The position numbers and the translations under genes were made by a program. From assembly GCA_035532155.1 (NCBI GenBank), contig DATKRN010000022.1, forward strand, positions 8,078 to 72,077: a DNA stretch of 64,000 nucleotides, read 5' to 3'. This DNA comes from Verrucomicrobiia bacterium. Its GTDB lineage: Bacteria; Chloroflexota; Dormibacteria; Aeolococcales; Bog-877. Positions 3,999 through 32,347 of the stretch are shown here, piece by piece (the first letter of the stretch is position 1; every line of letters begins with the position of its first letter). Under the pieces are notes generated by a model. The model had not been told where the DNA came from. It ran no database searches and saw only the letters and a list, made by a program, of their open reading frames with translations.

Positions 3999-5820
3999 CG
4001 TGAGTCGACCAGGACTGCGACGGGCCACGGGAGCGGCCGCGGTGGTGGCGGGGGCGCTGGTCCTCAGTGCCACCATGGGAGTCGCCGCCGGTGCCCGCGA
4101 GGGGATCTCCGCGCGAGCGACCGGGGGCACCGTTCGCTTCGCCCTGCCGCCGGCGGTGACCCCGACCTACATCTACCCGCTCTACCCCTTCGCCGACTAC
4201 ACGTATGCCAATCAGAGCTTCTTCGAAGCGCTGATGTACCGGCCGCTGTACGCGTTCGGCGACAACGGCTCGCCCCTGCTCAACCGGAGCGCGAGTCTGG
4301 CCGATCCCCCCTCGTTCTCCAACGGCGGCCGCACCGTCACGATCACGCTGAAGCCGTACCGCTGGTCGGACGGGCGTCCGCTGACCTCGCGGGACGTCGA
4401 ATTCTGGGAGAACCTGGTGGTGGCCAACAAGGCCGACTTCGGCCCCTATGTGCCCCACAACTATCCCGACAACGTGGTCTCCGCCACCTACCCGGCCCCG
4501 AACCGCTTCACCCTCACCTTCAATCGCGCCTACAACCACTTCTGGCTCCTCTACAACGAGCTCAGCCAGATAACGCCGATGCCCCAGCACGTCTGGGACC
4601 GGGTCAGCCTGACTGGGCCGGCCGGCAACCTGGACCAGACTCACGCCGGGGCGGTGGCGGTGAACCGGTTCCTGACCCGTCAGGCGAGTCAGCTCGACTC
4701 GTATGGCCGCAACCCGCTCTGGCGGGTGGTGGACGGCCCCTGGCGACTCAGCGCCTACACGCCAGCCACCGGCTTCTCGGTGTTCACCCCCAACCCGGCC
4801 TACTCCGGTCCTGACCGGCCCCGGATCCGCCGCTTCGAGGAGGTGCCCTTCACCAGCGACGCGGCGGAGTTCAACGCCCTGCGCGCCGGCACCATCGACT
4901 ACGGCTACCTACCCCTATTCGATCTCAGCCAGCGGAGCTACTTCGAGCACCACGGATACCGGGTGTCGGCCTGGCCGCTGTGGGCGTTCGACAACCTCAC
5001 CCTCAACTTCGGCAATCCCCGGCTGCGGCCGATCCTGGGCCAGCTCTATGTCCGCCAGGCGCTGCAGCACCTGGTCGATCAGCCCAGCTACATCCGCCAC
5101 ATCTTCCACGGCTATGCGGTGCCCACCTACGGGCCAGTGCCGCAGCAGCCGGTCACCCCCTTCGTCAGCCCGCAGGAGCGCCGCAACCCTTACCCCTTCA
5201 GCATCGCCGCCGCCCGAGCCCAGCTGGCCGCCCATGGCTGGCGGGTGGTTCCCGACGGGCGCTCGGTCTGCCAGCGGGCCGGCACGGGACGTCAGCAGTG
5301 CGGCGCTGGGATCGCGGCCGGCACCGCGCTCAGCCTCAACTTCGAATACCCCAGCGGGAGCGTCGCCGCCACCCAGGAGGCGCAGGCCTACAAGTCGGCG
5401 GCCGCGGCCGCCGGGATCCAGGTCCAGCTCGCCTCGCTGCCGCTCAACACCATCAACTCGCAGGGCGACTACTGCCCCGGGGCGGGATGCAAGTACGCGC
5501 TGCTCAGCTACGGCCTGGTGGGCTGGGACTACGGCCCCGACTACTACCCAACCGGGGGCGAGATCATCGGCACCGGCGCCAGCGGCAACAGCGGCGCCTA
5601 CAGCGACCCCATCAACGACCGCAACATCGCCGCCACCCATGTCGAGCCCGGGCTGGGTCCGCTCTACCGCTACCAGAACTATGTCGCGACCCAGCTGCCC
5701 CTCCTGTTCTTCCCCACCCCGGTGTTCCAGGTCTCGGTGATCCGGGACACCCTCCAGGGTGTCGGCCCCCAGTCACCCCTGACCACCATCAGTCCCCAGA
5801 GCTGGTCGCTGAGCGGCTGA
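3999..5820 (+). CDS. ABC transporter substrate-binding protein, family 5 (peptide/oligopeptide-type), secreted
   Basis: This is the C-terminal 607 aa of ORF 3124..5820. A GTG start is preceded by GGGGAGGAGG. An RR-containing signal-like N-terminus is followed by family-5 SBP-like sequence. No permease or ATPase genes are adjacent (orphan). Confidence 0.75.
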
Positions 5821-19890: not shown

Positions 19891-21726
19891 CTACTTAGTG
19901 TAGTACCAGTCGTTCGGGTAGATGTTCAGATAGGGGTCCTGGGGCGCGACCCCATCCAGGTTCTTCTTGACCGCCGAAATCCGGAACACCGGCATCGGCA
20001 GGAAGATCTCGTACTGCTGCGTCGTCATGTAGTTCTCGTAGGCGGCGAAGGTGGTGAAGTCAGAATGGGTGTGGGTGGCGTTGATCAGCTGCTGCAGGTG
20101 GGGGTCGCAGAGGTCGGAGTAGTTGCCGCTGGCGTTGCAGCCGAACGGCGCCCCGCCGGTGGGATACCAGCCCGGCCAGCCCCAGGGCCAGAACTCGATC
20201 GAGTAGTTGAGCTGCCACGAGCAGCTCGTGGCCTGGATGCAGGCTCCCTCCAGCGACACCTCCTCGCCGGCGTTGACGATCTTGAGGATGAGGTTGATCC
20301 CCACCAAAGAGAAGCTCGACTTCAGCAGCTGCACCATCTCCGAGTTCATGGTGGTGGCGGTCTGCGCCAGCAGGGTGAACTGCAAGGGAGCCCCTTTGTG
20401 CACCCCGACCCCGCATTCGCTGGCGCTGGTGCCGGGACGCTGGCAGGTGGAGGTGCCGTTGGGGACAACCCTCCAGCCGTGCGCCTTGAGCAGCTGCTTG
20501 GCACTGGACACGCTGTAGGGGTAGGGGTCGTCGCGCTCGAAGGCGGTGACCAGGGGGTTGTTGTAGCCCGGGTCGGGCACCGGTCCGGCGGCGTAGTAGC
20601 CGAGCCCATGCTCGACGTTCTTCAGGATCGAGCTCATGTTGACGAGATGGGTCATCGCCTGGCGGACGTAGAGCTGCTTGAGGATGGGGGTCTGCGGATC
20701 CTTGGGCGCGTAGCTGAAGATGATGCCGCCCCACGTGTCCTGGCCCCAGTTGATGATTTTGTACCCCTTGGCCTTGAGGGCCGGGATGGTGCTGCGGTCG
20801 TTGAGCGGGACGTAGCCGTAGTCGAGCTGACCGGACTCCAGCGCATTGAACTCGGCGCTGTCACTGGTGAACGGAACCTCGACGAACTCTTTGATCTTGG
20901 GCTTGGTCGCCCCCGAGTAGCGGAGGTTGGGCGCGAAGGCGACGTAGCTGTTGGTGGGCTCGTAGGACTTGATCTCCCAGGCCCCGTCGACCACCTTCCA
21001 GAGCGGGTTGCTGGCGTAGGTGGCCACCGTCTTGGTCTGCGCCATGAGGTAGGTGTACACCTTGGCGGCGCCGGCCGCGGTCCGATCGTAGTTGCCCACC
21101 GGGCTGCTGGCCGAGGTCTTGTCCCAGGCATGCTGCGGGATCGGCGTGATCTGGCTCAGCTGGTTGCCCAGCACCCAAGTGTGGCTGTAGGTGCCGTTGA
21201 ACGTGATCGAGAACTTGGACGCCGAGAGGTAGCGGATGCTCTTGATGTTGTCGGGGAAGTGACCCGGGACATAGGCGGGCCAGTTGGTCTTCTCCGCCTT
21301 CAGCAGGTTGATCCAGAATTCGATGTCACGGGTCGTCACCGGCCGGCCGTCCGACCAGCGCCAGGGCTTGAGGGTCATGGTCGCGACCGTGTCCCCGCCC
21401 GTGCTGCTCCACACCGGCGCGTAGCCAAGGCTGTGGCGCGGGCTGAACACCGGCTTTCCGTTCTGGCCCCAGATATAGAGCGGACGCCACATGAGGTAGG
21501 TGAACCAGGGGACATAGCCGACGTCCCAGTAGGCGCCGGTGAACATCGGGAACAGGAAAGTGGGTCCCTCTCCGACGTAGCCGGCGAAGCGGACGACGCC
21601 ACCGGACGCCGCCGGCGCAGGTGTCGGGGTCGCCTTGATCGCGGTGGCGCCGCAGCCCGCCAGCACCACGGCCATCGCCGCCACGCTCAGCAGGGCCCGG
21701 CGCCCCCCTCCCAACCAACGGGTCAT
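19891..21726 (-). CDS. ABC transporter family-5 substrate-binding lipoprotein, paralog of 3999..5820
   Basis: Lipobox LAGCG. Many shared blocks with the first SBP (TLKPWRWSDGRP, LSQITPIPQH, FTSDSAEFNAL, QLYVRQA, HGWRVVP). Visibly lower GC and K/N/I/Y-richer codon usage than its surroundings. Strong RBS AGGAGG. No adjacent permeases. Confidence 0.8.
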   Translation of the reverse strand: MTRWLGGGRRALLSVAAMAVVLAGCGATAIKATPTPAPAASGGVVRFAGYVGEGPTFLFPMFTGAYWDVGYVPWFTYLMWRPLYIWGQNGKPVFSPRHSLGYAPVWSSTGGDTVATMTLKPWRWSDGRPVTTRDIEFWINLLKAEKTNWPAYVPGHFPDNIKSIRYLSASKFSITFNGTYSHTWVLGNQLSQITPIPQHAWDKTSASSPVGNYDRTAAGAAKVYTYLMAQTKTVATYASNPLWKVVDGAWEIKSYEPTNSYVAFAPNLRYSGATKPKIKEFVEVPFTSDSAEFNALESGQLDYGYVPLNDRSTIPALKAKGYKIINWGQDTWGGIIFSYAPKDPQTPILKQLYVRQAMTHLVNMSSILKNVEHGLGYYAAGPVPDPGYNNPLVTAFERDDPYPYSVSSAKQLLKAHGWRVVPNGTSTCQRPGTSASECGVGVHKGAPLQFTLLAQTATTMNSEMVQLLKSSFSLVGINLILKIVNAGEEVSLEGACIQATSCSWQLNYSIEFWPWGWPGWYPTGGAPFGCNASGNYSDLCDPHLQQLINATHTHSDFTTFAAYENYMTTQQYEIFLPMPVFRISAVKKNLDGVAPQDPYLNIYPNDWYYTK

Positions 21727-21922: not shown

Positions 21923-22897
21923 TCAGGGAGAGGGCGCGGGCGCCCCGCCCCGGAGCACCGGGACCCGGACGGCGGGCGGACGACCGGCCAGGACCCCGAG
22001 CGTGATGGCCACGCCGCCAACCAGCTGGAGCGGGCGGATCGGCTCACCGATCAGCGCCGCCGCGAACACGATCCCGAGGAAGGGCTGGGTGTAGCCATAG
22101 ACGGAGGTCCGGGTGGGGCCGAGGCGCTCCAGTCCTGTGTAGTAGAGCCATCCGCTCAGGGTGACCGCTGCCAGCGCGCTGAACGCCAGCAGGCCGAGGA
22201 CACCTGAATCGAACCGGGCGGGCGCGACCACCGCCTCCACGATCCCGAGCGGGGCCAGGCCGATGCTGCCCACCAAGCTCACCATCGCCGCCAGCGCGAG
22301 CGGCGGATGGCGGGAGAGGAGGGGCGAGATGAGCAGGAGGTAGGCGGTCCAGCTGACGGGCAGTCCCAACCCCACCAGGTCGCCCGCGACCGAGGAGCGG
22401 CCGTGGGCTCCGGTGAGGACCACCAGCCCGAGGCCGGCGAGGCCCACCCCGAGCCCGGCCCAGACCCGAGTTGAGAGCCGCTGCCGGCGCCGCCAGGCGA
22501 GCCAGCCGGCGACCCCGAGCGGCGCGGTGCCGGCGAGCAGGGAGACGTTGTCCGCGCTGGTGAGGCGCAGGGCCCAGGTGAACGAGACCTGGTTGATGAC
22601 CACCCCGCAGCCGGCCGCCAGCGTCAGCTGGGCCAGCTCCCGGCCCCGCGGCCATCGCAGCGGGCCCTCGCGCCAGCGCGCGAGGGCCGCCAGCAGGCCG
22701 GCCCCCAGCACCCAGCGCAGCGCCGAGAACGTGAGCGGGCCGACGGGGCCGACGGCCAGCTTGGTGACGACGACGTTGGCGCTCCAGATGACGTAGGTGA
22801 CCAGTACCAGCCCGTCGCCCCAGCCGGCTCCCCCCGGCAGCGCGCGGCCCGGGAGCGGCAGCCGGCCCGCGCCTGCCTGCTGCCTCACCACGCCCAC
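21923..22897 (-). CDS. EamA/DMT superfamily transporter (10 TM)
   Basis: ORF hydropathy shows two EamA repeats. Confidence 0.7.
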   Translation of the reverse strand: MGVVRQQAGAGRLPLPGRALPGGAGWGDGLVLVTYVIWSANVVVTKLAVGPVGPLTFSALRWVLGAGLLAALARWREGPLRWPRGRELAQLTLAAGCGVVINQVSFTWALRLTSADNVSLLAGTAPLGVAGWLAWRRRQRLSTRVWAGLGVGLAGLGLVVLTGAHGRSSVAGDLVGLGLPVSWTAYLLLISPLLSRHPPLALAAMVSLVGSIGLAPLGIVEAVVAPARFDSGVLGLLAFSALAAVTLSGWLYYTGLERLGPTRTSVYGYTQPFLGIVFAAALIGEPIRPLQLVGGVAITLGVLAGRPPAVRVPVLRGGAPAPSP

Positions 22898-22958
22898 GGT
22901 AGCGGAGCCGCCCGGGAGACTGGGTGGGGGGCGCGACGGAGGCTGTTACGATCGGAGC

Positions 22959-25148
22959 ATGCTGCGCCTGCATGACACGCTGGCGCGCGGCGTACGCCCG
23001 GTGGAGCCGGCCGAGCCCGGCCGGCTTGGCCTCTACAGCTGTGGACCGACCGTGTATCGCTCCGCGCACATCGGCAACCTGCGCACCTACCTGCTCGCGG
23101 ACTGGATCAAGCGCACCGCCCGCGGCGCCGGCCTCGAGGTCCGTCACGTCAAGAACATCACCGATGTCGGCCACATGCGCCAGGAGCTGGCCGAGCGCGG
23201 CGGCGACAAGGTGATCGCGGCGGCGCTGGCCGCGGGCCGCACCCCGCAGGCGATCGCGCGGGCCTACGAGGACGAGTTCCACGCCGACGAGGCGGCCCTT
23301 CTGATCGGGCCCGCGGACGTCTTCCCCCGCGCCACCGAGCATGTGCCCGCGATGCTGGACCTGGTGGCGCGGCTGCTGGCCCGCGGGCTCGCCTACCAGG
23401 CTCAGGGCTCCGTCTACTTCGACACCAGCGCCTGGCCCGACTACGGTCGCCTCTCCGGCAACCTGGCCCCCGCGCAGCTGGCCGCGGCCGCCGGCGAGGC
23501 CGACCCGCTAAAGCGCCACCCCGGCGACTTCTCGCTCTGGCGGGCCGCCGAGCCCGGGCGCCGGCTGATGGTGTGGGAGAGTCCCTACGGGCCCGGGTTC
23601 CCGGGCTGGCACATCGAGTGCTCGGCGATGGCGATGGCGCACCTGGGCGAGACGTTCGACCTCCACACCGGCGGCGTCGACAACATCTTCCCCCACCACG
23701 AGGACGAGCGCGCCCAGAGCGAGGGCGCCACCGGGCGACCGTTCGCGCGCGCCTGGGTCCACGGCCAGCACCTACTCGCCGACGGCCTCAAGATGGCCAA
23801 GTCGACGGGCAACGTGTACACCCTCGCCGAGCTGCGCCGGCGCGGCTACGATCCGCTCGCCTTCCGATATCTGTGCGCCACCGTCCACTACCGGACCCCC
23901 CTCCACTTCACCCTGGCCACCCTGGCGGGCGCACAACGGGCGCTGCAGCGGCTGCGCGCCGTGGTCGCCGCGGGGCGGCGCGACGGCGCCGCCGACCGCG
24001 ATCCCGAGCCCCAGGTGGGGGCCCGGCTCCGCGCCGAGGTGCAGCGCCTGCTGGAGGACGACCTCGGGGTGCCGGCGGCGCTCGCCACCTGCTGGCGGCT
24101 GGTGCGCCACGACCCCGCCGGGCCCCCCGCCAAGTCGCTCGCCCTGCTCGGGGTCGAGCCGCTCCTCGGTCTCGGGCTGGACCAACCGGCGTCGCCCCCG
24201 GCACCGGACTCCGGCTGGCGCCGCGATCGGCTGGCCCGGGAGCGGGCCCGGGCGTCGGGCGGCTGGGAAGCGGCCGACCGCGCTCGTGTGCGGCTGGCTC
24301 GGGGTGGAGTCGTGCCCGAGGATGGGCCCACCGGGACCCGGTACCGCGCCGCCACCGCACTCGACCGCCGCCGCGGCCTGATCTCCAGCCCCGCGGAGGT
24401 CGAGGATGGTCGCGAACGACCCGATCGCGTCGAGGTCACGGTCAGCCTGGTCTGCAACGGCCCCGCCCCCGATGCGGTTCGCTGCGTGGAGAGCCTGCTG
24501 GCGCACCGCGGGCCCAGGGGCGTCGAGATCGTGGCGCTCGACAACGGCGCCGACCCCGACACCGGCGCCGCGCTGGACCGACTGGCGGCGGATCACCCCG
24601 CGGTGCTGGCTCTCCACGCCGACCACCGCCTGGGCGAGGGAGCGGCCCGCAACTGCACCCTGCGCGCGGCCACCGGGCGGGTGGTTCTGCTCGCCGACAC
24701 CGGGCTGGAGGCGGTCGGCGACTGCTTCACCCCGCTGCTGGCGGCGCTGGCCGACCCCGAGGTGGGAGCGGTCGGACGCTTCGGGGTGCGCTCCCGGGAC
24801 ATGCGCGAGTTCACCCTCTCGGATGCGGTCACGGTCGACGCCGTCGAGGGGTACTGCCTCGGGTTCGCCCGGCATCGGCTCCTCGAGATCGGCCTGCTCG
24901 ACGAGCGCTACCGGTTTTACCGACTGCTCGACTTCGATTGGTCGATGCGGCTGCGCGCCCACGGGCTGGAGAATCGGAGGATCCCCGACCTGCCGGTGCG
25001 AATGCACCTTCACCGGGGCTGGGAGGAGACCGAGCCGGAGGAGCGCGAGCGGCTGAGCCGAGCTAACTTTCGCCGCTTCTACGACCGCTGGCACCATCGT
25101 CAGGATCTGCTTATCAGCGCAACGGACCCGCCGCCGCGGTCGGGGTGA
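22959..25148 (+). CDS. cysS: Fusion protein: N-terminal cysteinyl-tRNA synthetase-like enzyme (catalytic and anticodon-binding-like regions), C-terminal GT2-family glycosyltransferase domain
   Basis: Single uninterrupted ORF (22797..25148). ATG at 22959 gives MLRLHDTLARG... Class I motifs are HIGN (HIGH-like) and KMAKS (KMSKS). Zn/Cys-binding residues are conserved (SCGPTVY, WHIECSAM, FPHHEDE). A CysRS-like C-terminus reads ...DDLGVPAALA...GW..DRLARERARASGGWEAADRARVRLARGGVVPEDGPTGTRY. It then continues in frame into a GT-A/GT2 domain (...VSLVCNGPAPD...VEIVALDNGADPDTG...RNCTLRAATGRVVLLADTG...DFDWSMRL...). Confidence 0.7.
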   Translation: MLRLHDTLARGVRPVEPAEPGRLGLYSCGPTVYRSAHIGNLRTYLLADWIKRTARGAGLEVRHVKNITDVGHMRQELAERGGDKVIAAALAAGRTPQAIARAYEDEFHADEAALLIGPADVFPRATEHVPAMLDLVARLLARGLAYQAQGSVYFDTSAWPDYGRLSGNLAPAQLAAAAGEADPLKRHPGDFSLWRAAEPGRRLMVWESPYGPGFPGWHIECSAMAMAHLGETFDLHTGGVDNIFPHHEDERAQSEGATGRPFARAWVHGQHLLADGLKMAKSTGNVYTLAELRRRGYDPLAFRYLCATVHYRTPLHFTLATLAGAQRALQRLRAVVAAGRRDGAADRDPEPQVGARLRAEVQRLLEDDLGVPAALATCWRLVRHDPAGPPAKSLALLGVEPLLGLGLDQPASPPAPDSGWRRDRLARERARASGGWEAADRARVRLARGGVVPEDGPTGTRYRAATALDRRRGLISSPAEVEDGRERPDRVEVTVSLVCNGPAPDAVRCVESLLAHRGPRGVEIVALDNGADPDTGAALDRLAADHPAVLALHADHRLGEGAARNCTLRAATGRVVLLADTGLEAVGDCFTPLLAALADPEVGAVGRFGVRSRDMREFTLSDAVTVDAVEGYCLGFARHRLLEIGLLDERYRFYRLLDFDWSMRLRAHGLENRRIPDLPVRMHLHRGWEETEPEERERLSRANFRRFYDRWHHRQDLLISATDPPPRSG

Positions 25149-25163: not shown

Positions 25164-25814
25164 TCAGGCGCTCGCGCCCGGCTCCAACAGGGCGAAGCGA
25201 CACCACAGGCTGACCGTGACGGTCTCCTCCCCCGCCTCCACCGCCATCGCCGCCGTCCCGGCGAGGGCGCGCCGATGGTTGCCCGGCACCGGCGCCGAAC
25301 CGTCCTCACCCGCCTCCACCACCCGCAGGACCGGACCCAGCCGGTGGCCCAATCCGACTGCCAGGGCGGTCGCCTGGGCGACCGCCCGCTCGAGAGCCAG
25401 GGTGCGGGCGCGGGCGCGGGCCGGGGCGGAGTCCGCCACCGTCCAGGCCAGGCCCCCGACAGTGAGACTGGTCGGCAGAGCGGATGCCACGGCATCGAGG
25501 ACAGGCCCGACGGCGGCCAGCTCGTCGAGCTGAACCACCAGCCCGTGGACGGCGCGGAACCCGGCCGGCTGACGCCCCCGGGGGTCGTGGATCGGGTGCA
25601 GCTGCACGGTCGAGGTCTGGCGGTCGAGAGCGGGGATGGCGGCCGCATCCAGGCAGTCCCGCAGGCGCTGCGAGTCGTCGGCCAGCTGCCGCAGCGCCAG
25701 GCCCGGGGTGGTGGCCCTGCACTCGACCCCGAGGGTGAGGCGCACCCGGTCCGGCGGGACCCGCGCCTCGCCGGTCGCGGTGACCTCGACCAACGGCGTG
25801 CGGCGCCCCCCCAT
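25164..25814 (-). CDS. SIMPL (DUF541) domain protein
   Basis: This is the C-terminal 216 aa of ORF 25164..26159, starting at ATG (MGGRRTPLVEVTATGEARV...). The upstream codons are compositional read-through. No signal peptide is evident. Confidence 0.55.
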   Translation of the reverse strand: MGGRRTPLVEVTATGEARVPPDRVRLTLGVECRATTPGLALRQLADDSQRLRDCLDAAAIPALDRQTSTVQLHPIHDPRGRQPAGFRAVHGLVVQLDELAAVGPVLDAVASALPTSLTVGGLAWTVADSAPARARARTLALERAVAQATALAVGLGHRLGPVLRVVEAGEDGSAPVPGNHRRALAGTAAMAVEAGEETVTVSLWCRFALLEPGASA

Positions 25815-26183
25815 CGGGGAGCCAGCGTAGCAGACGGCCAGCCGCCGGCTCGGCTCGGGCGGCTCCGATCGTCGCCGTCCGAGCCCCGCCGCTCCCGCTC
25901 GGCCTCCTCGGCGTCGCGCTGAGAGGAGACCGAGGCGAGATCGTCGGCCGCCAGCCGGCCACGCCGGCGGGGGCGCGGGGCTCGAGCTCGAGGCCGCGAC
26001 CCCGAGCCTGCGGCTGGTGGTCGAGACCGGGCCCTCGTCGACGCCCCCTGCGACCCACGCTGCAGCACACGGCCAGCAGTCAGGACGCCACGGCCGGGGG
26101 GGCGGCAGGGGACACGAGGTAGGCGCGCCGGCGGTCCCGGGCCACGCGGCGGACCCCAAAGCCGGCCGGGCCGGTGGCGCTCG

Positions 26184-26953: not shown

Positions 26954-28357
26954 TCAGCCCCGGTCCGGTGCGTCCGGAGGCGGCGGATCGGCCGCGGCGG
27001 CCAGCGGAGCCGCCGGCACCTCCGCCCCGAGGGTCGGGACGGAGGTGCCCCCCGTCCTTCCGTCGAGGTCCTCCTCGTCCACCTCCGGCGGCGCGAAGGG
27101 GCGGGCGCCGCGCACCCGGACGGTGCGGATCGACTGGCGCCGCACGGACTCGACGGTGAGGGTGACGTCGGGCTCGACGGCGATCGTGTCGCCGACGGTC
27201 GGGATCCGCCCGAGCCGCGCGTACACGTATCCCCCGAGGGAGTCGAAGTCGTCCCCGGTCAGCTGCAGGTGAAGCAGTTCGTTGACGTCATCCAGACTGG
27301 CCCGCGCGCTCACCAGCGCCTCGGCGGGAGCGATGATCTGGACCTCCTCCGCCTCGGCCTGGTCGTACTCGTCGCGGATCGGACCGACGATCTCCTCCAG
27401 GACATCCTCGATCGTGGCCAGGCCGGCGGTGCCCCCGTACTCGTCCACCACGATGGCCAGGTGGACGTTCTCCCGCTGCATCTCGTGGAGCAGCTCGCCG
27501 ACGCGCTTGGACTCGGGAGTGAAGTGCGCCGGCCGAGCGACCTCCCGCAGGGAAGGTTCGCCCGAGTCGCCTCCAGCGCGGGTGCGCGCCCGGAGCAGGT
27601 CCTTGGCGTAGACGACCCCGACGATGTTGTCGACGGTCTCCTCGAAACAGGGGATCCGGCTGTGGCCGTGCGTGAGGACCAGCTGGATGGCGTCGGCGAG
27701 CGGGCGTGCGACCTCGATCGCGACCATCTCGACCCGGGGCACCATCACCTCGCGGACGGCCTTGTCGGTCATCTCGAAGATGCCATGGATCATCTCGCGC
27801 TCGCCCTCCTCGACCACGCCCTCCTCCTCCCCCACCGCGACCAGCATCTTCAGCTCGTCTTCGGTGAGGAAGGGCCCGCGCGCGGCGGAGCGGCCGGCGC
27901 GCGCGCCGGTGAGCAACCCGGTGACCAGCGTCAGCAGCCGCACTCCTGGCGCCAGCACCCAGGTCAGCCCCGCCACCGGGCGCACCAGCACCGCGGCCAC
28001 CCGGTCAGCGTGCTGCAGAGCGTACGACTTGGGGCCGATCTCACAGGCGATCAGCACCACCACCGACAGCGTCACCGTCGACCAGAACGCGGCCGAGTGC
28101 CCGAAAGCCTGGACCGCCAGCAGGGTGGCGCAGGTAGAGGCGACGATCACCGCGACCGTGTTGGTGACCAGAATCGCCCCGAGGTAGGCGTTGGGCCGGT
28201 GGTGCAGTCGATCGATCGCGACCGCGGTGGGGTCGCCCTCCTCCCGCCGGGCCCGCAGCCGGATGCGGCTCAGCGAGGTGAGGCTGGTCTCGGCGCTAGC
28301 CGCGAAGGCGGCCGCGAGCAGGGCCACCACCAAGATGGCGATCAGGGGGGCGCTCAC
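26954..28357 (-). CDS. Hemolysin-family CorC/HlyC (TlyC) protein: DUF21 membrane domain, CBS pair and CorC_HlyC domain
   Basis: ORF 26954..28456. The GTG at 28357 gives VSAPLIAILVV... (DUF21 TM region). It carries CBS domains and a C-terminus ...DDFDSLGGYVYARLGRIPTVGD.... It lies immediately upstream of recO. Confidence 0.7.
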   Translation of the reverse strand: MSAPLIAILVVALLAAAFAASAETSLTSLSRIRLRARREEGDPTAVAIDRLHHRPNAYLGAILVTNTVAVIVASTCATLLAVQAFGHSAAFWSTVTLSVVVLIACEIGPKSYALQHADRVAAVLVRPVAGLTWVLAPGVRLLTLVTGLLTGARAGRSAARGPFLTEDELKMLVAVGEEEGVVEEGEREMIHGIFEMTDKAVREVMVPRVEMVAIEVARPLADAIQLVLTHGHSRIPCFEETVDNIVGVVYAKDLLRARTRAGGDSGEPSLREVARPAHFTPESKRVGELLHEMQRENVHLAIVVDEYGGTAGLATIEDVLEEIVGPIRDEYDQAEAEEVQIIAPAEALVSARASLDDVNELLHLQLTGDDFDSLGGYVYARLGRIPTVGDTIAVEPDVTLTVESVRRQSIRTVRVRGARPFAPPEVDEEDLDGRTGGTSVPTLGAEVPAAPLAAAADPPPPDAPDRG

Positions 28358-28667
28358 CGGTCCGGCGCGACCCGCGAGGGGTGATCCGGCGACCCCGCCG
28401 AGTGGCGCAGGTCCGCCGCGGCGCGGGCATGCCGCACGGGTGCGCCGGCGGCGCACCCCTGCCCGCCGTCCCCACAGCCTTCCCGCGGGACCCGCGATCG
28501 TCGTCCGGGCGAGCCGGGGCCCATCTCGACGGGCAGTCTACCAGTCCGGCGCTGGTGCTCCCGGTGCGCCCCGGCGGTGCGAGAGAGCCGCCCGGGTCGG
28601 CATGGGTGGGCGGGGGACCGGCGCGGCCGCCCGGGGCCGGAGCGCGCGCGGGTCGTAGGGGTGAGCC

Positions 28668-29722
28668 TCAGGATCGTGGGCGACCTCGGACCCTGGCTCG
28701 GATCCCGGGACGTGGGCGGCTCCGCCGGGGTACGCCGACGACGATCCCGTGGCCACCCCCCCTGGTGCAGCGAGCGGTACGGTCCTTCGAGATTGGTGAC
28801 CCGCGCGAGGGGGCGAGGCCACCGAGCGCCCTGTGGGCGCGACGGGGATCGTAGGTGTGCGGCCAGCGCGGCAGCGCGTGGGCGCGGGCGGTGTGGGAGA
28901 GGTAGCGGCGGATGTGGGCCCCCTCATCCAAGAAGCTCCGGTGGGAGCGCTTGACCGTGCCGTAGCTCTGAAGGTGGTAGGGGCGCCGGTGGGTGGTGGG
29001 GGTCGCGGCCGGGCCGGGGCGACGTCGTAGCTGCCATAGCCGGCGCGGTTGTCGGGGAGGACACGGTGGGCAGGGACGCCAGGGGTGGTCCAAAAGGCCA
29101 CCGCCTGGCCCCAGCAGGCCGCGCAGGTGGTCGCCCGCTCAGCGGCCAGGATCTCGGTGGGGGCCACCCAGGCGTGATCGTCCCGCGCCGAGGGCAGCAA
29201 CTCATCGCCGCCGGCGCGCCGGCCCACGCGGTGGTGGCGGCCCCAGGCCCCGCCCCAGCGCTCGATGGCCCCCAACCCTATGGAGTCCGGCCCCGCGTCG
29301 TGACGTCGACGGGGATGCGCTCCCCGGGGGCGGCGTGCTCGTAGTGGCGCATCACCCGGCCGGTGGGCCGGTCCCGCCAGCGCACCCGGTTGAGCCCGAG
29401 GCGGACCAGCACGCGGTGCACGGTGGAGGCGGCCAGCCCGAGGGCCGGGCCGATCCGGGCCCCACGTGCGCGTGCGCCGCAGCGGCGCGATCCGGTGCTC
29501 GAGGCGCCGGGCCAGCCGGCGCGAGCTGTGCCGGAGCACTGAGGGCCGGTCGCGCAGGCCCTCGACCCCCTCCGCCTGGTACCGGGCCCACCACCGGGAC
29601 GCCGGGGGCCGGGAGATCCCCATCTCCGCCGCGCTATGGGCGATCGGGCGGGCGTCCGTGGGGATCCGCTCGCGGAGCCAGAGCCGGCCCGCCGGGGTCA
29701 CGCGTGGGCTAGGCTGGGGCAT
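28668..29722 (-). mobile_element. IS481-family transposase, degraded (pseudogene, multiple frames)
   Basis: ORF 28538..29722 has the N-terminal HTH ...AAEMGISRPPASRWWARYQAEGVEGLRDRPS..., then a DDE-core remnant (...DELLPSARDDHAWVAPTEIL...RVLPDNRAGYGSYD...). The C-terminal ...TVKRSHRSFLDE...YDPRRAHRALGGL lies in a different frame (ORF 28668..29093). No clean inverted repeats were identified. Confidence 0.55.
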
Positions 29723-30373
29723 GAGAGCCTCCTGCGTGGGGGCTGGCAGTGCTCCACCTACGCTCGGAGACTCTCTTCCTCCCTGTCAACAACCTCCGTG
29801 GGCACTGCAGCTAGCCTGCTTTCCGGCGGACGATCTGAAGGATGGCCTCAGTTCGCGCCGAACCCTCGCCTCCAAGGGGACGACCCGTCTGACCACCGGG
29901 CACGCGCTCTGGCCCGGGCAGCCCGGAAATGTTGCCGATCCTGTATCGCCACGATGGGCCGCATCCGAGCTGCTTTGAGATCCTCGTCCGGCATCTGGGA
30001 CCGGCAGGCGCGTGCCCGGCCGCCATCACCTCGACCGTCACTGCGTTTATGAATGGGCAGGTCCGGGCGGGTGGCAGTCCAGACGTGCTGCCGCCGCGGT
30101 CCATCACCGGGGCGCTGCTCGCACTCATAGCCGAGATGGCGCCGGTGCTCGGTCACACCGCCTGCTCCGCTGAGCTGCCCAGCAACGGTCGCTTCAAGCG
30201 GCTAGACGTCGACGGCACTCCTTGGAGACCCGCCGGCTCCGCCTCACGCGGGACTTCGGCCGGGTCGCGGCTCACCTCCGCGGCCGCCCGCAATGGCTCA
30301 GGCTGCGCCGGCTGCGGGCACGTCGCAGTCGGCCCATCGCCCCCGTCGCCGGTCCGTCTGGCGCCCCTGTGAG

Positions 30374-30529
30374 CTACCAGTAGTACCACCGCCCGCCGCG
30401 GGGGCGGAACGCAAAGCCGACAAGCCACAGGATCAGAGCGATGACGGCGATGATCCACAGGAGGTGAATCGAGATTCCGACACCGAAGAGGATAGCGACC
30501 AGCACGAGGAAGCCGAGCAGCGCGATCAC
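30374..30529 (-). CDS. Small membrane protein (51 aa), lmo0937-like family
   Basis: Below the ORF-track size cutoff. Reverse-complementing 30374-30529 gives V/MIALLGFLVLVAILFGVGISIHLLWIIAVIALILWLVGFAFRPRGGRWYYW-stop (two TM, LWLVGF motif). Its GTG overlaps the TGA of the upstream gene. Confidence 0.45.
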   Translation of the reverse strand: MIALLGFLVLVAILFGVGISIHLLWIIAVIALILWLVGFAFRPRGGRWYYW

Positions 30530-30861
30530 ACGTCACCACCCACCAGGGGCCGCCCCTGAGATGACGGGCCGCGATTCGCCATCAGCATGATCAGGCGAGC
30601 CACGATCCACGCGCCGATCGTGTACACGATGATGGCCACGACATCAGCCCAGTGGGTCACGTGGCCGGTGGTAAGGGTCTGCTCGGAGAACGTCCCTTGG
30701 AATGGCGCCGCGATGGAGCCGGCCACCTGGGCGACGAATGAGACGAATCCGGTCTCGTTGGCGGCCAGGATCTTGAAGACGAAGTCCATGGCCAGTACGA
30801 TGTCCACGATCCCGATCGCGAGCCACACAGCCTGGGTCCAGCGCGGACCGGTGTTCAGCAC
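30526..30861 (-). CDS. YggT-like small integral membrane protein
   Basis: ORF 30526..30861 (...WLAIGIVDIVLAMDFVFKILAANETGFVSFVAQVAG...). GC is lower than the window average. GTG start without a clear RBS. Confidence 0.4.
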   Translation of the reverse strand: MLNTGPRWTQAVWLAIGIVDIVLAMDFVFKILAANETGFVSFVAQVAGSIAAPFQGTFSEQTLTTGHVTHWADVVAIIVYTIGAWIVARLIMLMANRGPSSQGRPLVGGDV

Positions 30862-30975
30862 GGTCGTGCGCGTGCGCCGGAATCGCTCGCGGGATTGGAT
30901 GGGGAGTCCAGGTGCGCTCGGTGGCGACGTCGACGACTGCTCGACGATCGCCTCCTCAGTTTGAACGTCGCGACT

Positions 30976-30979
30976 CTAA
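30976..30979. repeat. Target-site duplication CTAA (left copy) of the IS5-family element. The right copy is at 32348-32351.
   Basis: Identical tetranucleotides immediately outside both terminal inverted repeats. YTAR-type targets are typical of IS5-group elements. Confidence 0.55.
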
Positions 30980-32347
30980 CAGGGTGCTGAAAAACCAGCC
31001 ATCATCACCGGCCCCCGAGCGCTCTCGGATGTGAGAGTCTTGGTCCAGCGAGTTGGTCTGAGGAGGACAGGTGATGCGGGGACCGGTGATCTACCAGACG
31101 GCGATGCTGTCCGCCGTCACCACCGAGGATCTGGTACCCACGGACCACCCCATTCGCCGGATCAAGCCGGTGGTGGACGCCATCCTGGTCGACCTCGAGC
31201 CCACCTTCCGGCAGATGTACTCGGTCATCGGGCGGCCGAGCATCCCGCCCGAGCATCTGCTCAAGAGCACGGTGCTGATGGCGATGTACTCGGTGCGGAG
31301 CGAGCGCCAGTTCTGTGAGCGGCTCCAGTACGACATGCTGTTCCGCTGGTTTCTCGACCTGGGCATCGAAGACCGTGTCTTCGTCCCCACCACCTTCACC
31401 AAGAACCGCGAGCGGCTGCTCACCCACGAGGGGGCGGACACGTTCTTCCAGGCCTCGGTGGAGCAGGCGCGGCTGCGCGGCTACGTCTCGGACGAGCATT
31501 TCACCGCCGACGGCAGCCTGCTCGAGGCATGGGCCTCGGTCAAGAGCTTCACGCCCCGCACCGAGAGCGGCCACGGGTCGGCCGCCAGCGGTGGCGGCGC
31601 TGGGCGCGATCCCGAGGTGGACTTCCACGGGGAGAAGCGGAGCAACGCGACCCATCAGTCCACCACCGATCCCGAGGCCTTGCTGATGCGCAAGAGCAAG
31701 GCCCACGCGGCCAAGCTCTCCTACGCCGATCACGTCCTGATGGAGAACCGCTCCGGCCTCATCGTCGCGACGGAACTCACCCCGGCGACCGGGTACGCCG
31801 AGCGCGACACCGCGATCGCGCTGCTCACGCGGCTGCCCGGCGCGGGCCGGCAGCGCCGCACCCTCGGCGTCGACAAGGGGTATGACACCCGTGACTTCGT
31901 GAAGGGGTGCCGCGCGCTCAAGGTCACCCCTCACGTGGCCCAGAATGTGAGCGGGCGCCGCAGCGCCATCGACGACCGGACCACCCGCCATACGGGATAC
32001 GCGGTCAGCCAACGGATCCGCAAGCGGGTGGAGGAGATCTTCGGCTGGAAGAAGACCGTGGGCGGCTGCCGCAAGCTTCGCTTCGTGGGCCGGAAGCGCA
32101 ATCGCATCTGGACCCTGTTCAGCGGAGCGACGTTCAACCTCACCCGGATCGCCACCCTCGATCGTGACGCCGCCCTCCGGGCGGCATGAGGGCGCCGGGA
32201 GCGGCCGCGCGGAGCGAGCCGGGGGCTCCGGCGGGCGGTCCAGCCGCCACCCCGGAGGCCGCCACGGGGCGACGAGCGCCTCGGGCCGCTGACCGCGACC
32301 AGCTTGGCGGCCCAGACATCTCGTGAGGTCGCTATTTCAGCACCCTG
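30980..32347. mobile_element. IS5-family insertion sequence (~1.37 kb), intact
   Basis: Perfect 13-bp terminal inverted repeats CAGGGTGCTGAAA at 30980-30992 and (reverse complement) 32335-32347. One transposase ORF. Flanked by 4-bp direct repeats CTAA at 30976-30979 and 32348-32351. Confidence 0.7.
31071..32189 (+). CDS. IS5-family (DDE_Tnp_1) transposase
   Basis: ORF with an RBS GGAGGA upstream, a DDE-type core (...GVDKGYDTRDF...), and the C-terminal ...EEIFGWKKTVGGCRKLRFVGRKRN.... Confidence 0.85.
   Translation: MMRGPVIYQTAMLSAVTTEDLVPTDHPIRRIKPVVDAILVDLEPTFRQMYSVIGRPSIPPEHLLKSTVLMAMYSVRSERQFCERLQYDMLFRWFLDLGIEDRVFVPTTFTKNRERLLTHEGADTFFQASVEQARLRGYVSDEHFTADGSLLEAWASVKSFTPRTESGHGSAASGGGAGRDPEVDFHGEKRSNATHQSTTDPEALLMRKSKAHAAKLSYADHVLMENRSGLIVATELTPATGYAERDTAIALLTRLPGAGRQRRTLGVDKGYDTRDFVKGCRALKVTPHVAQNVSGRRSAIDDRTTRHTGYAVSQRIRKRVEEIFGWKKTVGGCRKLRFVGRKRNRIWTLFSGATFNLTRIATLDRDAALRAA

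What the first reader, a model, noticed from the sequence alone, without database searches (positions are those of the whole stretch)
22959..25148. In-frame fusion of a complete CysRS-like enzyme to a GT2 glycosyltransferase domain
One uninterrupted ORF encodes a class-I aaRS fold with HIGN/KMAKS motifs, conserved Zn/cysteine-binding residues, and even the CysRS C-terminal helical and anticodon-binding-like region. It then runs directly into a GT-A/GT2 domain (DNGADPDTG, LLADTG, DFDW). Both domains read cleanly in the same frame, so a sequencing frameshift is an unlikely cause. Actinobacteria carry a CysRS paralog (MshC) that ligates Cys to a sugar, so a CysRS-like/glycosyltransferase fusion could build a cysteinylated glycoconjugate. 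Alternatively the housekeeping CysRS may have gained an appended GT domain.
Basis: seen in the sequence. Interest (0 to 1): 0.75.

Follow-up and report, generated by a model that had tools for sequence, protein, structure and literature searches.

The report
Cysteinyl-tRNA synthetase fused to glycosyltransferase
This gene is a real, complete cysteinyl-tRNA synthetase with a sugar-transferring enzyme domain attached to its tRNA-anticodon-reading end; the design is shared by hundreds of Dormibacterota and Chloroflexota species, I found no description of it in the literature I could search, and the attached domain's job is unknown.

Summary
Window 22959-25148 (+) encodes one 729-aa protein: a full-length CysRS (residues 1-463) joined in frame to a GT-A/GT2 glycosyltransferase domain (490-718). 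Identical proteins occur in independent assemblies, so it is not a frameshift artefact. It is not unique. At least 254 species-level genomes carry the GT module, and in 76 of the best 80 loci (Dormibacterota and Chloroflexota) the CysRS core lies in frame upstream. Databases name it plain "cysteine--tRNA ligase". The synthetase half is a normal CysRS subtype (HIGN, as in solved CysRS 3SP1), not MshC. The GT half has about 25 invariant polar residues and a confident GT-A model, so it is probably active.

The new result is that the GT domain also exists as a standalone ~300-330-aa protein, including in the cultured Ktedonospora formicarum. These proteins always keep the ~45-residue CysRS anticodon-binding mini-domain, and the residues that read G34 of tRNA-Cys are conserved in it. 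So the GT domain's constant partner is a tRNA-Cys anticodon reader.

The most likely reading is the housekeeping CysRS plus a glycosyltransferase that works while docked on tRNA-Cys. The acceptor is unknown. I could not test whether this is the only CysRS in the genome. No publication was found.

The parts
22959..25148 (+). Whole fused gene: 729-aa CysRS-GT2 protein plus the TGA stop
   Evidence: ORF; translation and coordinates checked; identical protein P0001 in independent assemblies
23004..23933 (+). Class-I CysRS catalytic (Rossmann) domain, residues 16-325
   Evidence: Pfam PF01406 E 1.3e-83; PDB CysRS hits E 1e-74 to 1e-68
23040..23042 (+). Cys28, zinc ligand (E. coli C28 equivalent)
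   Evidence: Aligned to E. coli YVCG; invariant in 120/120 homologs
23067..23078 (+). HIGN signature (HIGH-motif variant), residues 37-40
   Evidence: H37 120/120 and N40 119/120; the same HIGN/HLGN occurs in solved CysRS 3sp1 and 6ujd
23160..23213 (+). Subtype-specific insertion TDVGHMRQELAERGGDKV, residues 68-85
   Evidence: Present in 3sp1 and 6ujd, absent from E. coli and 8qhp CysRS
23601..23624 (+). PGWHIECS: W217 (cysteine pocket) and C221 (zinc ligand, E. coli C209)
   Evidence: Alignment to 1li5; at least 98% conserved
23688..23708 (+). FPHHEDE: H246 and E250 (zinc ligands, E. coli H234 and E238)
   Evidence: Alignment to 1li5; both 120/120
23790..23804 (+). KMAKS loop (KMSKS motif), residues 278-282
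   Evidence: K278, M279 and K281 120/120; A280 116/120
23934..24209 (+). Helical stem / anticodon-binding bundle of CysRS, residues 326-417
   Evidence: Covered by TIGR00435 and by the alignment to E. coli CysRS
24210..24347 (+). CysS_C mini-domain (alpha-alpha-beta-beta), residues 418-463, with the G34-reading residues R427, R431, W436, D440, R443 and D455. It is shared by the synthetase and the GT module.
   Evidence: Pfam PF23493; model m0bd554931db4; mapped to E. coli R423/R427/W432/D436/R439/D451 and conserved in fused and standalone proteins; residue roles from PMC12684709 and PMC13449415
24348..24425 (+). Linker, residues 464-489, partly ordered (conserved ISSPxEV)
   Evidence: Family alignment; pLDDT 82-88 in the module model; spacing from D455 to R508 fixed at 50-55 residues in all 120 fused proteins
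24426..25112 (+). GT-A / GT2 glycosyltransferase domain, residues 490-718
24540..24545 (+). D528-N529, at the position of the nucleotide-binding 'DD/DN' motif of GT2 enzymes
   Evidence: Aligned to VVVDS of 6yv7; D 105/120 and N 117/120
24696..24722 (+). D580-T-G...E584...D588: non-canonical 'DXD' region
   Evidence: Aligned to TDAD of 6yv7; D580 120/120, E584 119/120, D588 119/120
24912..24941 (+). R652-F-Y654-R655-x-L-D658 block (RFYRLLDFDW); candidate acceptor site or catalytic base
   Evidence: R652, Y654, R655 and D658 all 120/120 in fused proteins; altered in the Ktedonobacteria standalone subgroup
25005..25022 (+). H683-x-H685-x-x-W688
   Evidence: 119-120/120 in fused proteins; H685 and W688 are deleted in 61/110 short proteins
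25041..25079 (+). Conserved C-terminal helix ERERLSRANFRRF (R696, S700, N703, F707)
   Evidence: Invariant in fused proteins; N703 108/110 in short proteins; helix 276-294 in the module model

Best explanation
The gene encodes this lineage's ordinary cysteinyl-tRNA synthetase, of the HIGN subtype. An ancient fusion, retained across Dormibacterota and Chloroflexota, added a soluble and probably active GT-A (GT2) glycosyltransferase directly after the small C-terminal domain that reads the GCA anticodon of tRNA-Cys.

**Proposed mechanism**
- The N-terminal 463 residues activate cysteine and charge tRNA-Cys as in any bacterium. This is shown at the level of sequence and motifs; the activity is inferred.
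- The GT domain binds a nucleotide sugar and transfers the sugar to an acceptor. The fold and conserved residues are shown; the activity is inferred.
- The unit that evolution keeps together is not 'synthetase + GT' but 'anticodon reader + GT'. Standalone proteins made only of these two parts exist and still keep the G34-reading residues.
- My preferred acceptor is the anticodon arm of tRNA-Cys itself. A molecule whose glycosylation is gated by tRNA-Cys binding is the alternative. This step is inferred and weak.

**My probabilities for the steps**
- Real fused gene: 0.99
- Housekeeping CysRS: about 0.85
- GT catalytically active: about 0.7
- GT function coupled to tRNA-Cys binding: about 0.5
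- tRNA itself is the acceptor: about 0.2-0.25
For: - **Fusion is real and widespread.**. A profile scan finds the module in 254 species-level genomes, and 76 of the best 80 loci have the CysRS core in frame.
- **Bona fide CysRS.** TIGR00435 scores 344 against a cut-off of 340 and covers residues 2-463, while MshC is far below its cut-off. The zinc and cysteine pocket (C28, W217, C221, H246, E250) and KMAKS are invariant. HIGN and the insertion are shared with solved CysRS 3sp1 and 6ujd.
- **Housekeeping context.** In Dormibacterota the gene sits between a class-II aaRS and recO-corC-prs-glmU. There is no second cysS or mshC in the 64-kb window.
- **Standalone CysS_C+GT2 proteins are genuine.** Pfam detects both domains. 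No CysRS core lies in the flanks of L007, L009, L010, L012, L058, L094 or L095. One is from the isolate Ktedonospora formicarum (WP_220194942.1).
- **Anticodon-reading residues are retained.** Among 110 short proteins, R423 is kept in 106, R427 in 105, an aromatic at 432 in 107, D436 in 107, R/K439 in 106 and D451 in 108 (E. coli numbering). These are the residues that contact G34 or that set anticodon specificity (PMC12684709, PMC13449415).
- **Fixed geometry.** The two-domain module model has pLDDT 91.7 and pTM 0.83.
- **No alternative partner.** No partner gene is conserved across lineages. The covalently attached reader is the only constant partner.
Against: - **Sole CysRS not tested.** I could not test whether this is the only CysRS in the genome, because only flanks of up to 10 kb and this 64-kb window were readable.
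- **Marginal score.** The cysS model is passed by only 4 bits.
- **Non-canonical DXD.** The motif reads D-T-G. Nine of 110 short proteins have Gly at D580, and the Ktedonobacteria subgroup has lost H685/W688. Activity or acceptor may therefore differ or be lost in some members.
- **Acidic GT domain.** Median pI is 5.9 and net charge -6. That is not what one expects of a domain that grips an RNA backbone.
- **No local tRNA-Cys link.** No tRNA-Cys gene or RNA motif is linked to the locus.
- **Weak rigidity evidence.** A pTM of 0.83 for a 312-residue model with a 45-residue mini-domain is weak evidence for rigid packing.
- **Impure short-protein set.** The 110 short proteins include some truncated calls of fused genes. 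For example, P0129 shares a 90% cluster with a 728-aa protein.
Confidence: 0.6

Rival explanations
1. [quoted passage not shown] The GT makes or extends a sugar acceptor and the CysRS active site (or Cys-tRNA) supplies cysteine.
For: - Thiol-redox genes sit next to the module in three independent contexts. A small glutaredoxin-like gene lies directly upstream in 18 Chloroflexota species loci, plus 3 more loci. A thioredoxin-like/DsbA gene lies downstream in L010. A Thioredoxin_7 gene followed by SOD and the suf operon lies downstream in L095.
- Gamma-glutamyltranspeptidase lies directly upstream in three Ktedonobacteraceae MAGs.
- Unidentified thiols have been reported in Chloroflexus (PMC6336425).
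- From my own knowledge, MshC shows that a CysRS fold can ligate cysteine to an amino sugar.
Against: - The CysRS part fails the MshC model and keeps the full tRNA apparatus.
- Standalone GT proteins keep the G34-reading residues, which a small-molecule pathway has no obvious need for.
- The GT is GT-A/GT2, unlike the GT4 enzymes MshA and BshA (my own knowledge).
- No deacetylase or acetyltransferase partner is conserved nearby. Dormibacterota and several Chloroflexota neighbourhoods have no thiol genes.
- The disulfide-reductase-like neighbour in L062 and L077 is plain dihydrolipoyl dehydrogenase.
- The DsbA-like neighbour matches a lipoprotein family, so it is probably extracytoplasmic.
Confidence: 0.17
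2. The GT domain is a non-catalytic appendage. It would be a former enzyme now used for oligomerisation, localisation, regulation or tRNA handling by CysRS, as with many appended aaRS domains.
For: - The 'DXD' is non-canonical (D-T-G).
- Some standalone relatives have lost D580 or the H685/W688 block.
- No sugar-pathway partner is conserved across lineages.
- The domain is acidic. It could act as a nucleic-acid mimic next to the anticodon site, but that is speculation.
Against: - About 25 invariant polar or charged residues are kept across 43-60% identical sequences, at positions typical of GT-A nucleotide and acceptor sites: D528/N529, D580, E584, D588, D627, D658, H683.
- E584 and R638 are kept in 110/110 short proteins.
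- A GDP-mannose-pyrophosphorylase-like gene precedes the standalone gene in four Ktedonobacteria loci, with GGT between them in three.
Confidence: 0.13
3. The fused protein is a specialised paralog. A separate canonical CysRS elsewhere in the genome does the housekeeping charging.
For: - I could not read whole genomes.
- CysRS is among the aaRS that often have paralogs (PMC5388404).
- The TIGR00435 score is only just above its cut-off.
Against: - All catalytic and tRNA-recognition residues are invariant.
- The architecture is present in essentially every sampled Dormibacterota relative, at a conserved housekeeping locus.
- NCBI and IMG pipelines name it the cysteine--tRNA ligase.
- No second copy is present in the window.
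Confidence: 0.1
4. Assembly or sequencing artefact: two adjacent genes joined by a frameshift or a chimeric contig.
For: Frameshift-broken versions do occur in error-prone long-read assemblies (L008, L011, L013, L090). This shows that such errors happen at this locus, but they break the gene rather than join two genes.
Against: - The identical protein occurs in independent short-read assemblies.
- 76 of 80 species loci are in frame.
- 120 of 120 top homologs have both domains.
- The CysS_C-linker-GT junction is conserved in sequence and length.
Confidence: 0.01

Closest known systems
Canonical bacterial cysteinyl-tRNA synthetase (E. coli 1LI5/1U0B; HIGN-subtype structures 3SP1 and 6UJD)
   Same: - Full-length match, query 1-463 against 1-459 of the E. 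coli enzyme.
- Same zinc and cysteine pocket and the same KMSKS loop.
- Same C-terminal anticodon-binding mini-domain with the G34-reading residues.
- HIGN and the TD[IV]GH...DK insertion are shared with 3SP1 and 6UJD.
   Different: It carries 266 extra C-terminal residues that form a GT-A glycosyltransferase domain. The AARS Online table of aaRS domain superfamilies lists no glycosyltransferase (PMC11580382).
MshC (cysteine:GlcN-Ins ligase of mycothiol biosynthesis, a CysRS paralog; 3C8Z, 8HFM)
   Same: Same class-I catalytic fold and the same cysteine and zinc chemistry. It is detectable at E 4e-52.
   Different: - MshC is 413-414 aa and aligns only to query residue 378, so it lacks the anticodon-binding end.
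- The query scores 229.6 against a cut-off of 485.1 on the MshC model.
- MshC has no GT domain.
aaRS fused to an enzyme that uses the aaRS product or its tRNA, such as LysRS-MprF fusions; and GluQRS/YadB, an aaRS paralog that modifies tRNA-Asp (the latter from my own knowledge)
   Same: An aminoacyl-tRNA synthetase, or part of one, is covalently joined to or recruited for a second catalytic activity linked to tRNA. LysRS-MprF fusions are mentioned in PMC5388404.
   Different: The partner here is a GT-A glycosyltransferase attached at the anticodon end, far from the aminoacyl end of the bound tRNA. No activity is known for it.
GT2/GT-A glycosyltransferases (PcManGT 6YV7, GalNAc-T1, chondroitin polymerase K4CP, SpsA, GlfT2)
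   Different: - Only 13-21% identical to these enzymes, with no specific subfamily match. The best NCBIfam hit is MftF at E 1e-8, far below its cut-off.
- D-T-G replaces DXD.
- No membrane segment was evident in the sequence (by eye only).
- It carries an N-terminal tRNA-anticodon-binding mini-domain.
Eukaryotic queuosine glycosyltransferases QTGAL (B3GNTL1, GT2) and QTMAN (from my own knowledge, not tested here)
   Same: They are a precedent that a GT-A/GT2 enzyme can glycosylate a nucleoside in a tRNA anticodon loop.
   Different: They act on Q34 of tRNA-Tyr and tRNA-Asp, whereas tRNA-Cys has G34, not Q. They have no aaRS-derived domain. I did not test for homology beyond the general fold.

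Membership tests
Cysteinyl-tRNA synthetase (TIGR00435 / PF01406) | Scores above the curated whole-protein cut-off of the cysS equivalog model, over the full length | tested here: met
   344.0 bits against a cut-off of 340, covering residues 2-463 of the protein and 1-464/466 of the model. The margin is only 4 bits. PF01406 scores 281 bits against a cut-off of 27.
Cysteinyl-tRNA synthetase (TIGR00435 / PF01406) | Class-I signature motifs (HIGH-type and KMSKS) | tested here: met
   HIGN (residues 37-40) and KMAKS (278-282) are near-invariant in 120 homologs. The HIGN/HLGN variant also occurs in solved CysRS 3sp1 and 6ujd.
Cysteinyl-tRNA synthetase (TIGR00435 / PF01406) | Zinc and cysteine-binding residues (E. 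coli C28, C209, H234, E238, W205) | tested here: met
   C28, C221, H246, E250 and W217 align to them and are 98-100% conserved.
Cysteinyl-tRNA synthetase (TIGR00435 / PF01406) | C-terminal anticodon-binding domain with the residues that read G34 of the GCA anticodon | tested here: met
   R427, R431, W436, D440 and R443 correspond to E. coli R423, R427, W432, D436 and R439. Their roles come from PMC12684709 and PMC13449415.
Cysteinyl-tRNA synthetase (TIGR00435 / PF01406) | Charges tRNA-Cys with cysteine and is the cell's only such enzyme | not testable with these tools
   This needs an aminoacylation assay and whole-genome searches. Only the 64-kb window could be checked, and it has no second copy.
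MshC (TIGR03447, mycothiol cysteine ligase) | Scores above the curated cut-off of the MshC equivalog model | tested here: not met
   229.6 bits against a cut-off of 485.1.
MshC (TIGR03447, mycothiol cysteine ligase) | About 410 aa, with no tRNA anticodon-binding C-terminal domain | tested here: not met
   Solved MshC chains are 413-414 aa and align only to query residues 2-378. The query continues through a complete CysS_C domain.
Glycosyltransferase family 2 / GT-A fold (PF00535) | Scores above the Pfam gathering threshold | tested here: met
   49.7 bits against a cut-off of 23.3, at residues 503-629.
Glycosyltransferase family 2 / GT-A fold (PF00535) | GT-A three-dimensional fold | tested here: met
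Glycosyltransferase family 2 / GT-A fold (PF00535) | DXD metal and nucleotide-sugar binding motif | tested here: inconclusive
   The position aligned to TDAD of 6yv7 reads A-D580-T-G. D580 is invariant in fused proteins, as are E584 and D588 nearby, but the second acidic residue of DXD is missing.
Glycosyltransferase family 2 / GT-A fold (PF00535) | Transfers a sugar from a nucleotide sugar to an acceptor | not testable with these tools
   This needs biochemistry. Donor and acceptor are both unknown.
MshA/BshA-type thiol-pathway glycosyltransferases (GT4, GT-B fold; family definition from my own knowledge) | GT-B fold / Glycos_transf_1 domain | tested here: not met

The most novel reading that the evidence does not exclude
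The 'CysRS anticodon reader + GT-A' module is a tRNA-Cys-guided glycosyltransferase. Docked on the GCA anticodon, it would glycosylate tRNA-Cys itself (a nucleoside of the anticodon arm), or it would glycosylate another acceptor only when tRNA-Cys is bound. Either would be, to my knowledge, a previously unknown kind of tRNA-directed glycosylation in bacteria. It would be built into the synthetase in Dormibacterota and Chloroflexota and free-standing in Ktedonobacteria.
Probability: 0.22. Interest if true: 0.9.

Novelty: new variant of a known kind. Interest (0 to 1): 0.62.

Why it matters
Aminoacyl-tRNA synthetases gain extra domains when a second function needs to be tied to a particular tRNA or amino acid. 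Here two large, mostly uncultured soil and subsurface phyla have kept a glycosyltransferase welded to the anticodon-reading end of CysRS. Relatives keep the same 'anticodon reader + glycosyltransferase' pair even without the synthetase.

If the sugar transfer is directed at or gated by tRNA-Cys, this would open a new class of tRNA-linked glycosylation in bacteria. If instead it feeds a cysteine-sugar thiol, it could identify the unknown redox buffer of Chloroflexota.

Either way the question is directly testable. A standalone copy exists in a cultured organism (Ktedonospora formicarum, WP_220194942.1), and the proteins appear soluble.

There is also a practical point. Current annotation ('cysteine--tRNA ligase' or 'glycosyltransferase') hides the second domain in the fused proteins and hides the tRNA-binding domain in the standalone ones.

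Tried and rejected
- **Artefact hypothesis.** Rejected by the independent assemblies and the in-frame loci.
- **MshC membership.** Rejected.
- **HIGN as a sign of lost function.** Rejected, because solved CysRS 3sp1 and 6ujd have HIGN/HLGN.
- **False standalone hits.** Several apparent standalone GT genes on long contigs (P0279, P0281, P0327; L008, L011, L013, L090) turned out to be fused genes broken by frameshifts in long-read assemblies. I excluded them. P0129 is a truncated call of a 728-aa protein.
- **Conserved partner gene.** I clustered the neighbours of 80 loci and ran Pfam and NCBIfam on representatives. Nothing is conserved across lineages.
- **Promising 'disulfide reductase' neighbour.** The gene upstream in L062 and L077 is ordinary dihydrolipoyl dehydrogenase.
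- **CxxC scan.** A scan of flanking ORFs found almost nothing beyond the glutaredoxin clade.
- **RNA elements.** There is no Rfam family and no tRNA in the window. No tRNA-Cys gene lies in 60 related loci. No promoter-like or terminator-like sites flank the gene.
- **Charge test for RNA binding.** The GT domain is acidic, which counts against broad RNA-backbone binding.
- **AFDB Foldseek search.** The library was unavailable.
- **Literature.** Eight full-text searches found no description of a CysRS-glycosyltransferase fusion.
- **Cultured organism with the fused form.** None was named among the best 120 hits of two searches.
- **Second cysS elsewhere in the genome.** I could not test this, because the tools give at most 10-kb flanks.


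Full report

Yes. An uninterrupted ORF runs from 22797 to 25148 on the + strand. Its N-terminus (MLRLxxTL) matches that of 120 homologs and the start used by independent gene callers.

Pfam finds the CysRS catalytic domain at residues 16-325 (E 1.3e-83). It also finds the small CysS_C anticodon-binding domain at 426-463 (E 9e-4) and Glycos_transf_2 at 503-629 (E 5e-13, above the gathering score).

The identical protein is encoded on contigs from several independent assemblies. A frameshift or chimera is therefore excluded.

**2. How common is it?**

Very common within two phyla.

- All 120 best database hits (48-78% identical, 692-765 aa) carry both Pfam domains. Where they are named, they are called 'cysteine--tRNA ligase' from Candidatus Dormibacteria/Dormibacteraeota, Chloroflexota, Dehalococcoidia or Anaerolineae.
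- A second search starting from a Thermoflexales copy adds Thermoflexales and Roseiflexaceae.
- A scan of one genome per GTDB species with a profile of the GT domain found 254 genomes.
- The best 80 are all MAGs of Dormibacterota and Chloroflexota. In 76 of them the CysRS core (H[IL]GN ... KM[AS]KS) lies upstream in the same open frame.

The organism is not an actinobacterium. Sequence similarity and synteny place it in Dormibacterota. The NCBI label 'Verrucomicrobiae' on the identical protein comes from a MAG set whose labels look unreliable.

**3. The synthetase half**

It aligns end to end with E. coli CysRS. It passes the NCBIfam cysS equivalog model, though only just (344 against 340 bits). 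It fails the MshC model badly (229.6 against 485.1).

The zinc and cysteine pocket (C28, W217, C221, H246, E250) and the KMAKS loop are invariant in the family.

The unusual HIGN in place of HIGH, and an 11-residue insertion after 'TDVGH', are also present in solved CysRS enzymes 3sp1 and 6ujd. This is a normal CysRS subtype, not a degenerate paralog.

In Dormibacterota the gene sits in a conserved housekeeping neighbourhood:
- **Upstream:** a class-II aaRS and, in 18 loci, a divergent peptidase S51-like gene.
- **Downstream:** recO, a CorC/CNNM gene, prs and glmU.

The 64-kb window holds no second cysS or mshC. I infer, at about 0.85, that this is the cell's housekeeping CysRS. I could not read whole genomes, so that is not shown.

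**4. The glycosyltransferase half**

- **Conservation.** Across fused proteins whose GT parts are only 43-60% identical, about 25 polar residues are invariant or nearly so. They are D528-N529 (nucleotide-binding position), D580, E584, D588, D627, Y632, R638, R652/Y654/R655, D658, H683, H685, W688, R696, S700 and N703. That pattern is what one expects of an active enzyme.
- **Caveat.** The position of the DXD motif reads D-T-G.
- **Location.** I saw no membrane segment in the sequence by eye, so I take the domain to be cytoplasmic and soluble.

**5. The new finding: the GT domain travels with the anticodon reader**

An exhaustive profile search with the GT domain found 715 proteins at E <= 1e-30. 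Besides the fused proteins, it revealed many 300-345-aa proteins that start with Met and align to the query from residue ~423-427 onward. Residue 427 is where the conserved core of the CysS_C mini-domain begins.

Pfam confirms CysS_C plus Glycos_transf_2 in them, often above the gathering score.

Some are artefacts. In L008, L011, L013 and L090 the CysRS core lies upstream in shifted frames. P0129 is a truncated call.

Seven loci have no CysRS core anywhere in the fetched flanks:
- four Ktedonobacteria loci: L007, L009, L012, and L094 from the cultured Ktedonospora formicarum (WP_220194942.1)
- L010
- L058
- L095

See for their contexts.

In E. coli CysRS, G34 of the anticodon is read by Arg427 and Asp436 (hydrogen bonds), by Trp432 (stacking) and through a water network with Arg423. 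R427, W432, D436 and R439 are the residues mutated to change anticodon specificity (PMC12684709, PMC13449415).

Exactly these positions are conserved in the short proteins:

| E. coli position | Conserved in short proteins (of 110) |
|---|---|
| R423 | 106 |
| R427 | 105 |
| aromatic at 432 | 107 |
| D436 | 107 |
| R/K at 439 | 106 |
| D451 | 108 |

A model of residues 418-729 shows an alpha-alpha-beta-beta mini-domain followed by the GT-A fold (pLDDT 91.7, pTM 0.83).

A crude neighbour-joining tree, without support values, places the standalone forms in several separate positions among the fused ones. This suggests repeated fission or fusion at the same boundary.

So the unit that evolution conserves is 'tRNA-Cys anticodon reader + GT-A'.

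**6. What does the GT do?**

This is unknown. The evidence narrows it only partly.

*No conserved partner gene.* Across lineages the neighbours include pyruvate kinase, an ArsA-like ATPase, FolP, dihydrolipoyl dehydrogenase and others.

*Recurrent but lineage-limited neighbours:*
- A small glutaredoxin-like gene lies directly upstream in 18 Chloroflexota species loci, plus three more.
- Thioredoxin-fold genes lie downstream in L010 and L095.
- Gamma-glutamyltranspeptidase lies directly upstream in three Ktedonobacteraceae MAGs. A GDP-mannose-pyrophosphorylase-like gene lies upstream in four Ktedonobacteria loci.
- A peptidase S51-like gene lies divergently upstream in 18 Dormibacterota loci. 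It is homologous to the N-terminal domain of a single S51-like + CysS_C + GT2 fusion protein, P0151.

These neighbours keep alive a thiol or peptide-conjugate reading. Unidentified thiols are reported for Chloroflexus (PMC6336425).

*Against that reading.* A small-molecule pathway has no obvious use for a G34-reading domain.

*Against a simple tRNA-acceptor model.* The GT domain is acidic (median pI 5.9).

*My ranking:*

| Reading | Probability |
|---|---|
| GT activity coupled to tRNA-Cys binding | about 0.5 |
| ... of which tRNA itself is the acceptor | about 0.2-0.25 |
| Cysteine-sugar thiol or conjugate pathway | about 0.17 |
| Non-catalytic appendage | about 0.13 |

**7. Comparison with what is known**

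It is a member of the CysRS family; all testable defining features are met. It is not MshC. Its C-terminal domain is a GT2/GT-A member by score and fold, with an inconclusive DXD motif.

As a design, it belongs with aaRS that carry a second enzyme, such as the LysRS-MprF fusions mentioned in PMC5388404. The AARS Online table of aaRS domain superfamilies lists no glycosyltransferase (PMC11580382). Eight full-text searches found no paper on this fusion. The library covers only open-access papers and bioRxiv, so absence is not proof.

**8. Verdict**

The fusion is a real, ancient, lineage-wide architecture, not a one-off, and it is already sitting in databases under a plain name. That lowers the surprise of the raw observation.

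The appended enzyme is conserved, probably active and unexplained. Its strict association with a tRNA-Cys anticodon reader, even in free-standing proteins of a culturable bacterium, is a concrete and testable lead.

- **Novelty:** a new variant of a known kind (an aaRS with an appended catalytic domain).
- **Interest:** 0.62.

Noticed in passing
L007, L009, L012, L094 (gene at 10001-10990 in each), L010, L058, L095: Free-standing ~300-335-aa proteins consist only of the CysRS anticodon-binding mini-domain (CysS_C) plus the GT2 domain. Databases annotate them just as 'glycosyltransferase'. One is in the cultured Ktedonospora formicarum (WP_220194942.1).
   Followed up: yes
P0151 (593 aa, JGI contig of 375,972 bp); L017:3913-4623(-), L001:9166-9855(-): A single protein fuses a peptidase S51-like domain, through a proline-rich linker, to CysS_C + GT2. 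Its S51-like part is homologous (27% identity, E 2e-10) to the gene that sits divergently upstream of the fused cysS-GT2 in 18 Dormibacterota loci. That neighbour is absent from this window.
   Followed up: partly
L047, L049, L051, L061, L063, L064, L066, L068, L069, L071, L074, L076, L078, L079, L080, L083, L090, L093 (about 4290-4570 in most); L008, L011, L013: A ~68-aa glutaredoxin-like gene (C-x-x-C/S; weak match to the 'Uxx-star' glutaredoxin-like (seleno)protein family) lies within tens of bp upstream of the fused gene. A MatE-family transporter precedes it in one Chloroflexota clade. L047 also has a tRNA-Sec gene about 4 kb upstream.
   Followed up: partly
window 28538-31600, between the corC-like gene (26954-28456, -) and prs: Compared with a related Dormibacterota genome (L001), where corC is followed directly by prs, this organism has about 3.2 kb inserted. 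The insert holds an HTH_28 gene (28538-29722, -) and several small ORFs, and GC falls to about 0.68 in the adjoining 30-34 kb stretch. It may be a mobile or acquired segment.
   Followed up: no
window 19891-21726 (-): The SBP_bac_5 solute-binding protein gene has clearly lower GC (0.63-0.65) than its surroundings (0.73-0.79). Together with the EamA gene (21923-22897, -), it occupies the position that the peptidase S51-like gene holds in many other Dormibacterota.
   Followed up: no
window 25164-26159 (-): A SIMPL-domain protein gene lies between the fused gene and recO in this organism. In L001, recO follows the fused gene directly.
   Followed up: no
P0001; L014, L029, L035 (record titles): Taxon labels in one MAG collection (the 'TPA_asm ... 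SMAG' records) look wrong. Near-identical Dormibacterota-type loci are labelled Verrucomicrobiae (the window's own protein), Micrarchaeia archaeon, Nanopelagicaceae and Acidiferrales.
   Followed up: partly
L008, L011, L013, L090: In these assemblies (three are metagenome contigs named 'contig_NNNNN', which I take to be long-read) the fused gene is split into two or three frames. This produces spurious 'CysRS fragment' and 'glycosyltransferase' gene calls that end up in protein databases.
   Followed up: yes
P0474, P0481, P0479, P0486, P0450 and others: A subgroup of fused proteins is 790-830 aa long because of an extra 50-80-residue tail after the GT domain. The nature of the tail was not examined.
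   Followed up: partly
L010:9388-10915: In L010 a TadA-like tRNA adenosine deaminase gene, a tRNA-Ser(CGA) gene and the standalone CysS_C-GT2 gene lie directly one after another on the same strand.
   Followed up: no
L001:15381-16714 versus the window's organism (L004:19634-21085): In L001, glmU appears as two separate genes (nucleotidyltransferase 252 aa plus hexapeptide acetyltransferase 192 aa). In the window's organism it is one 483-aa gene.
   Followed up: no
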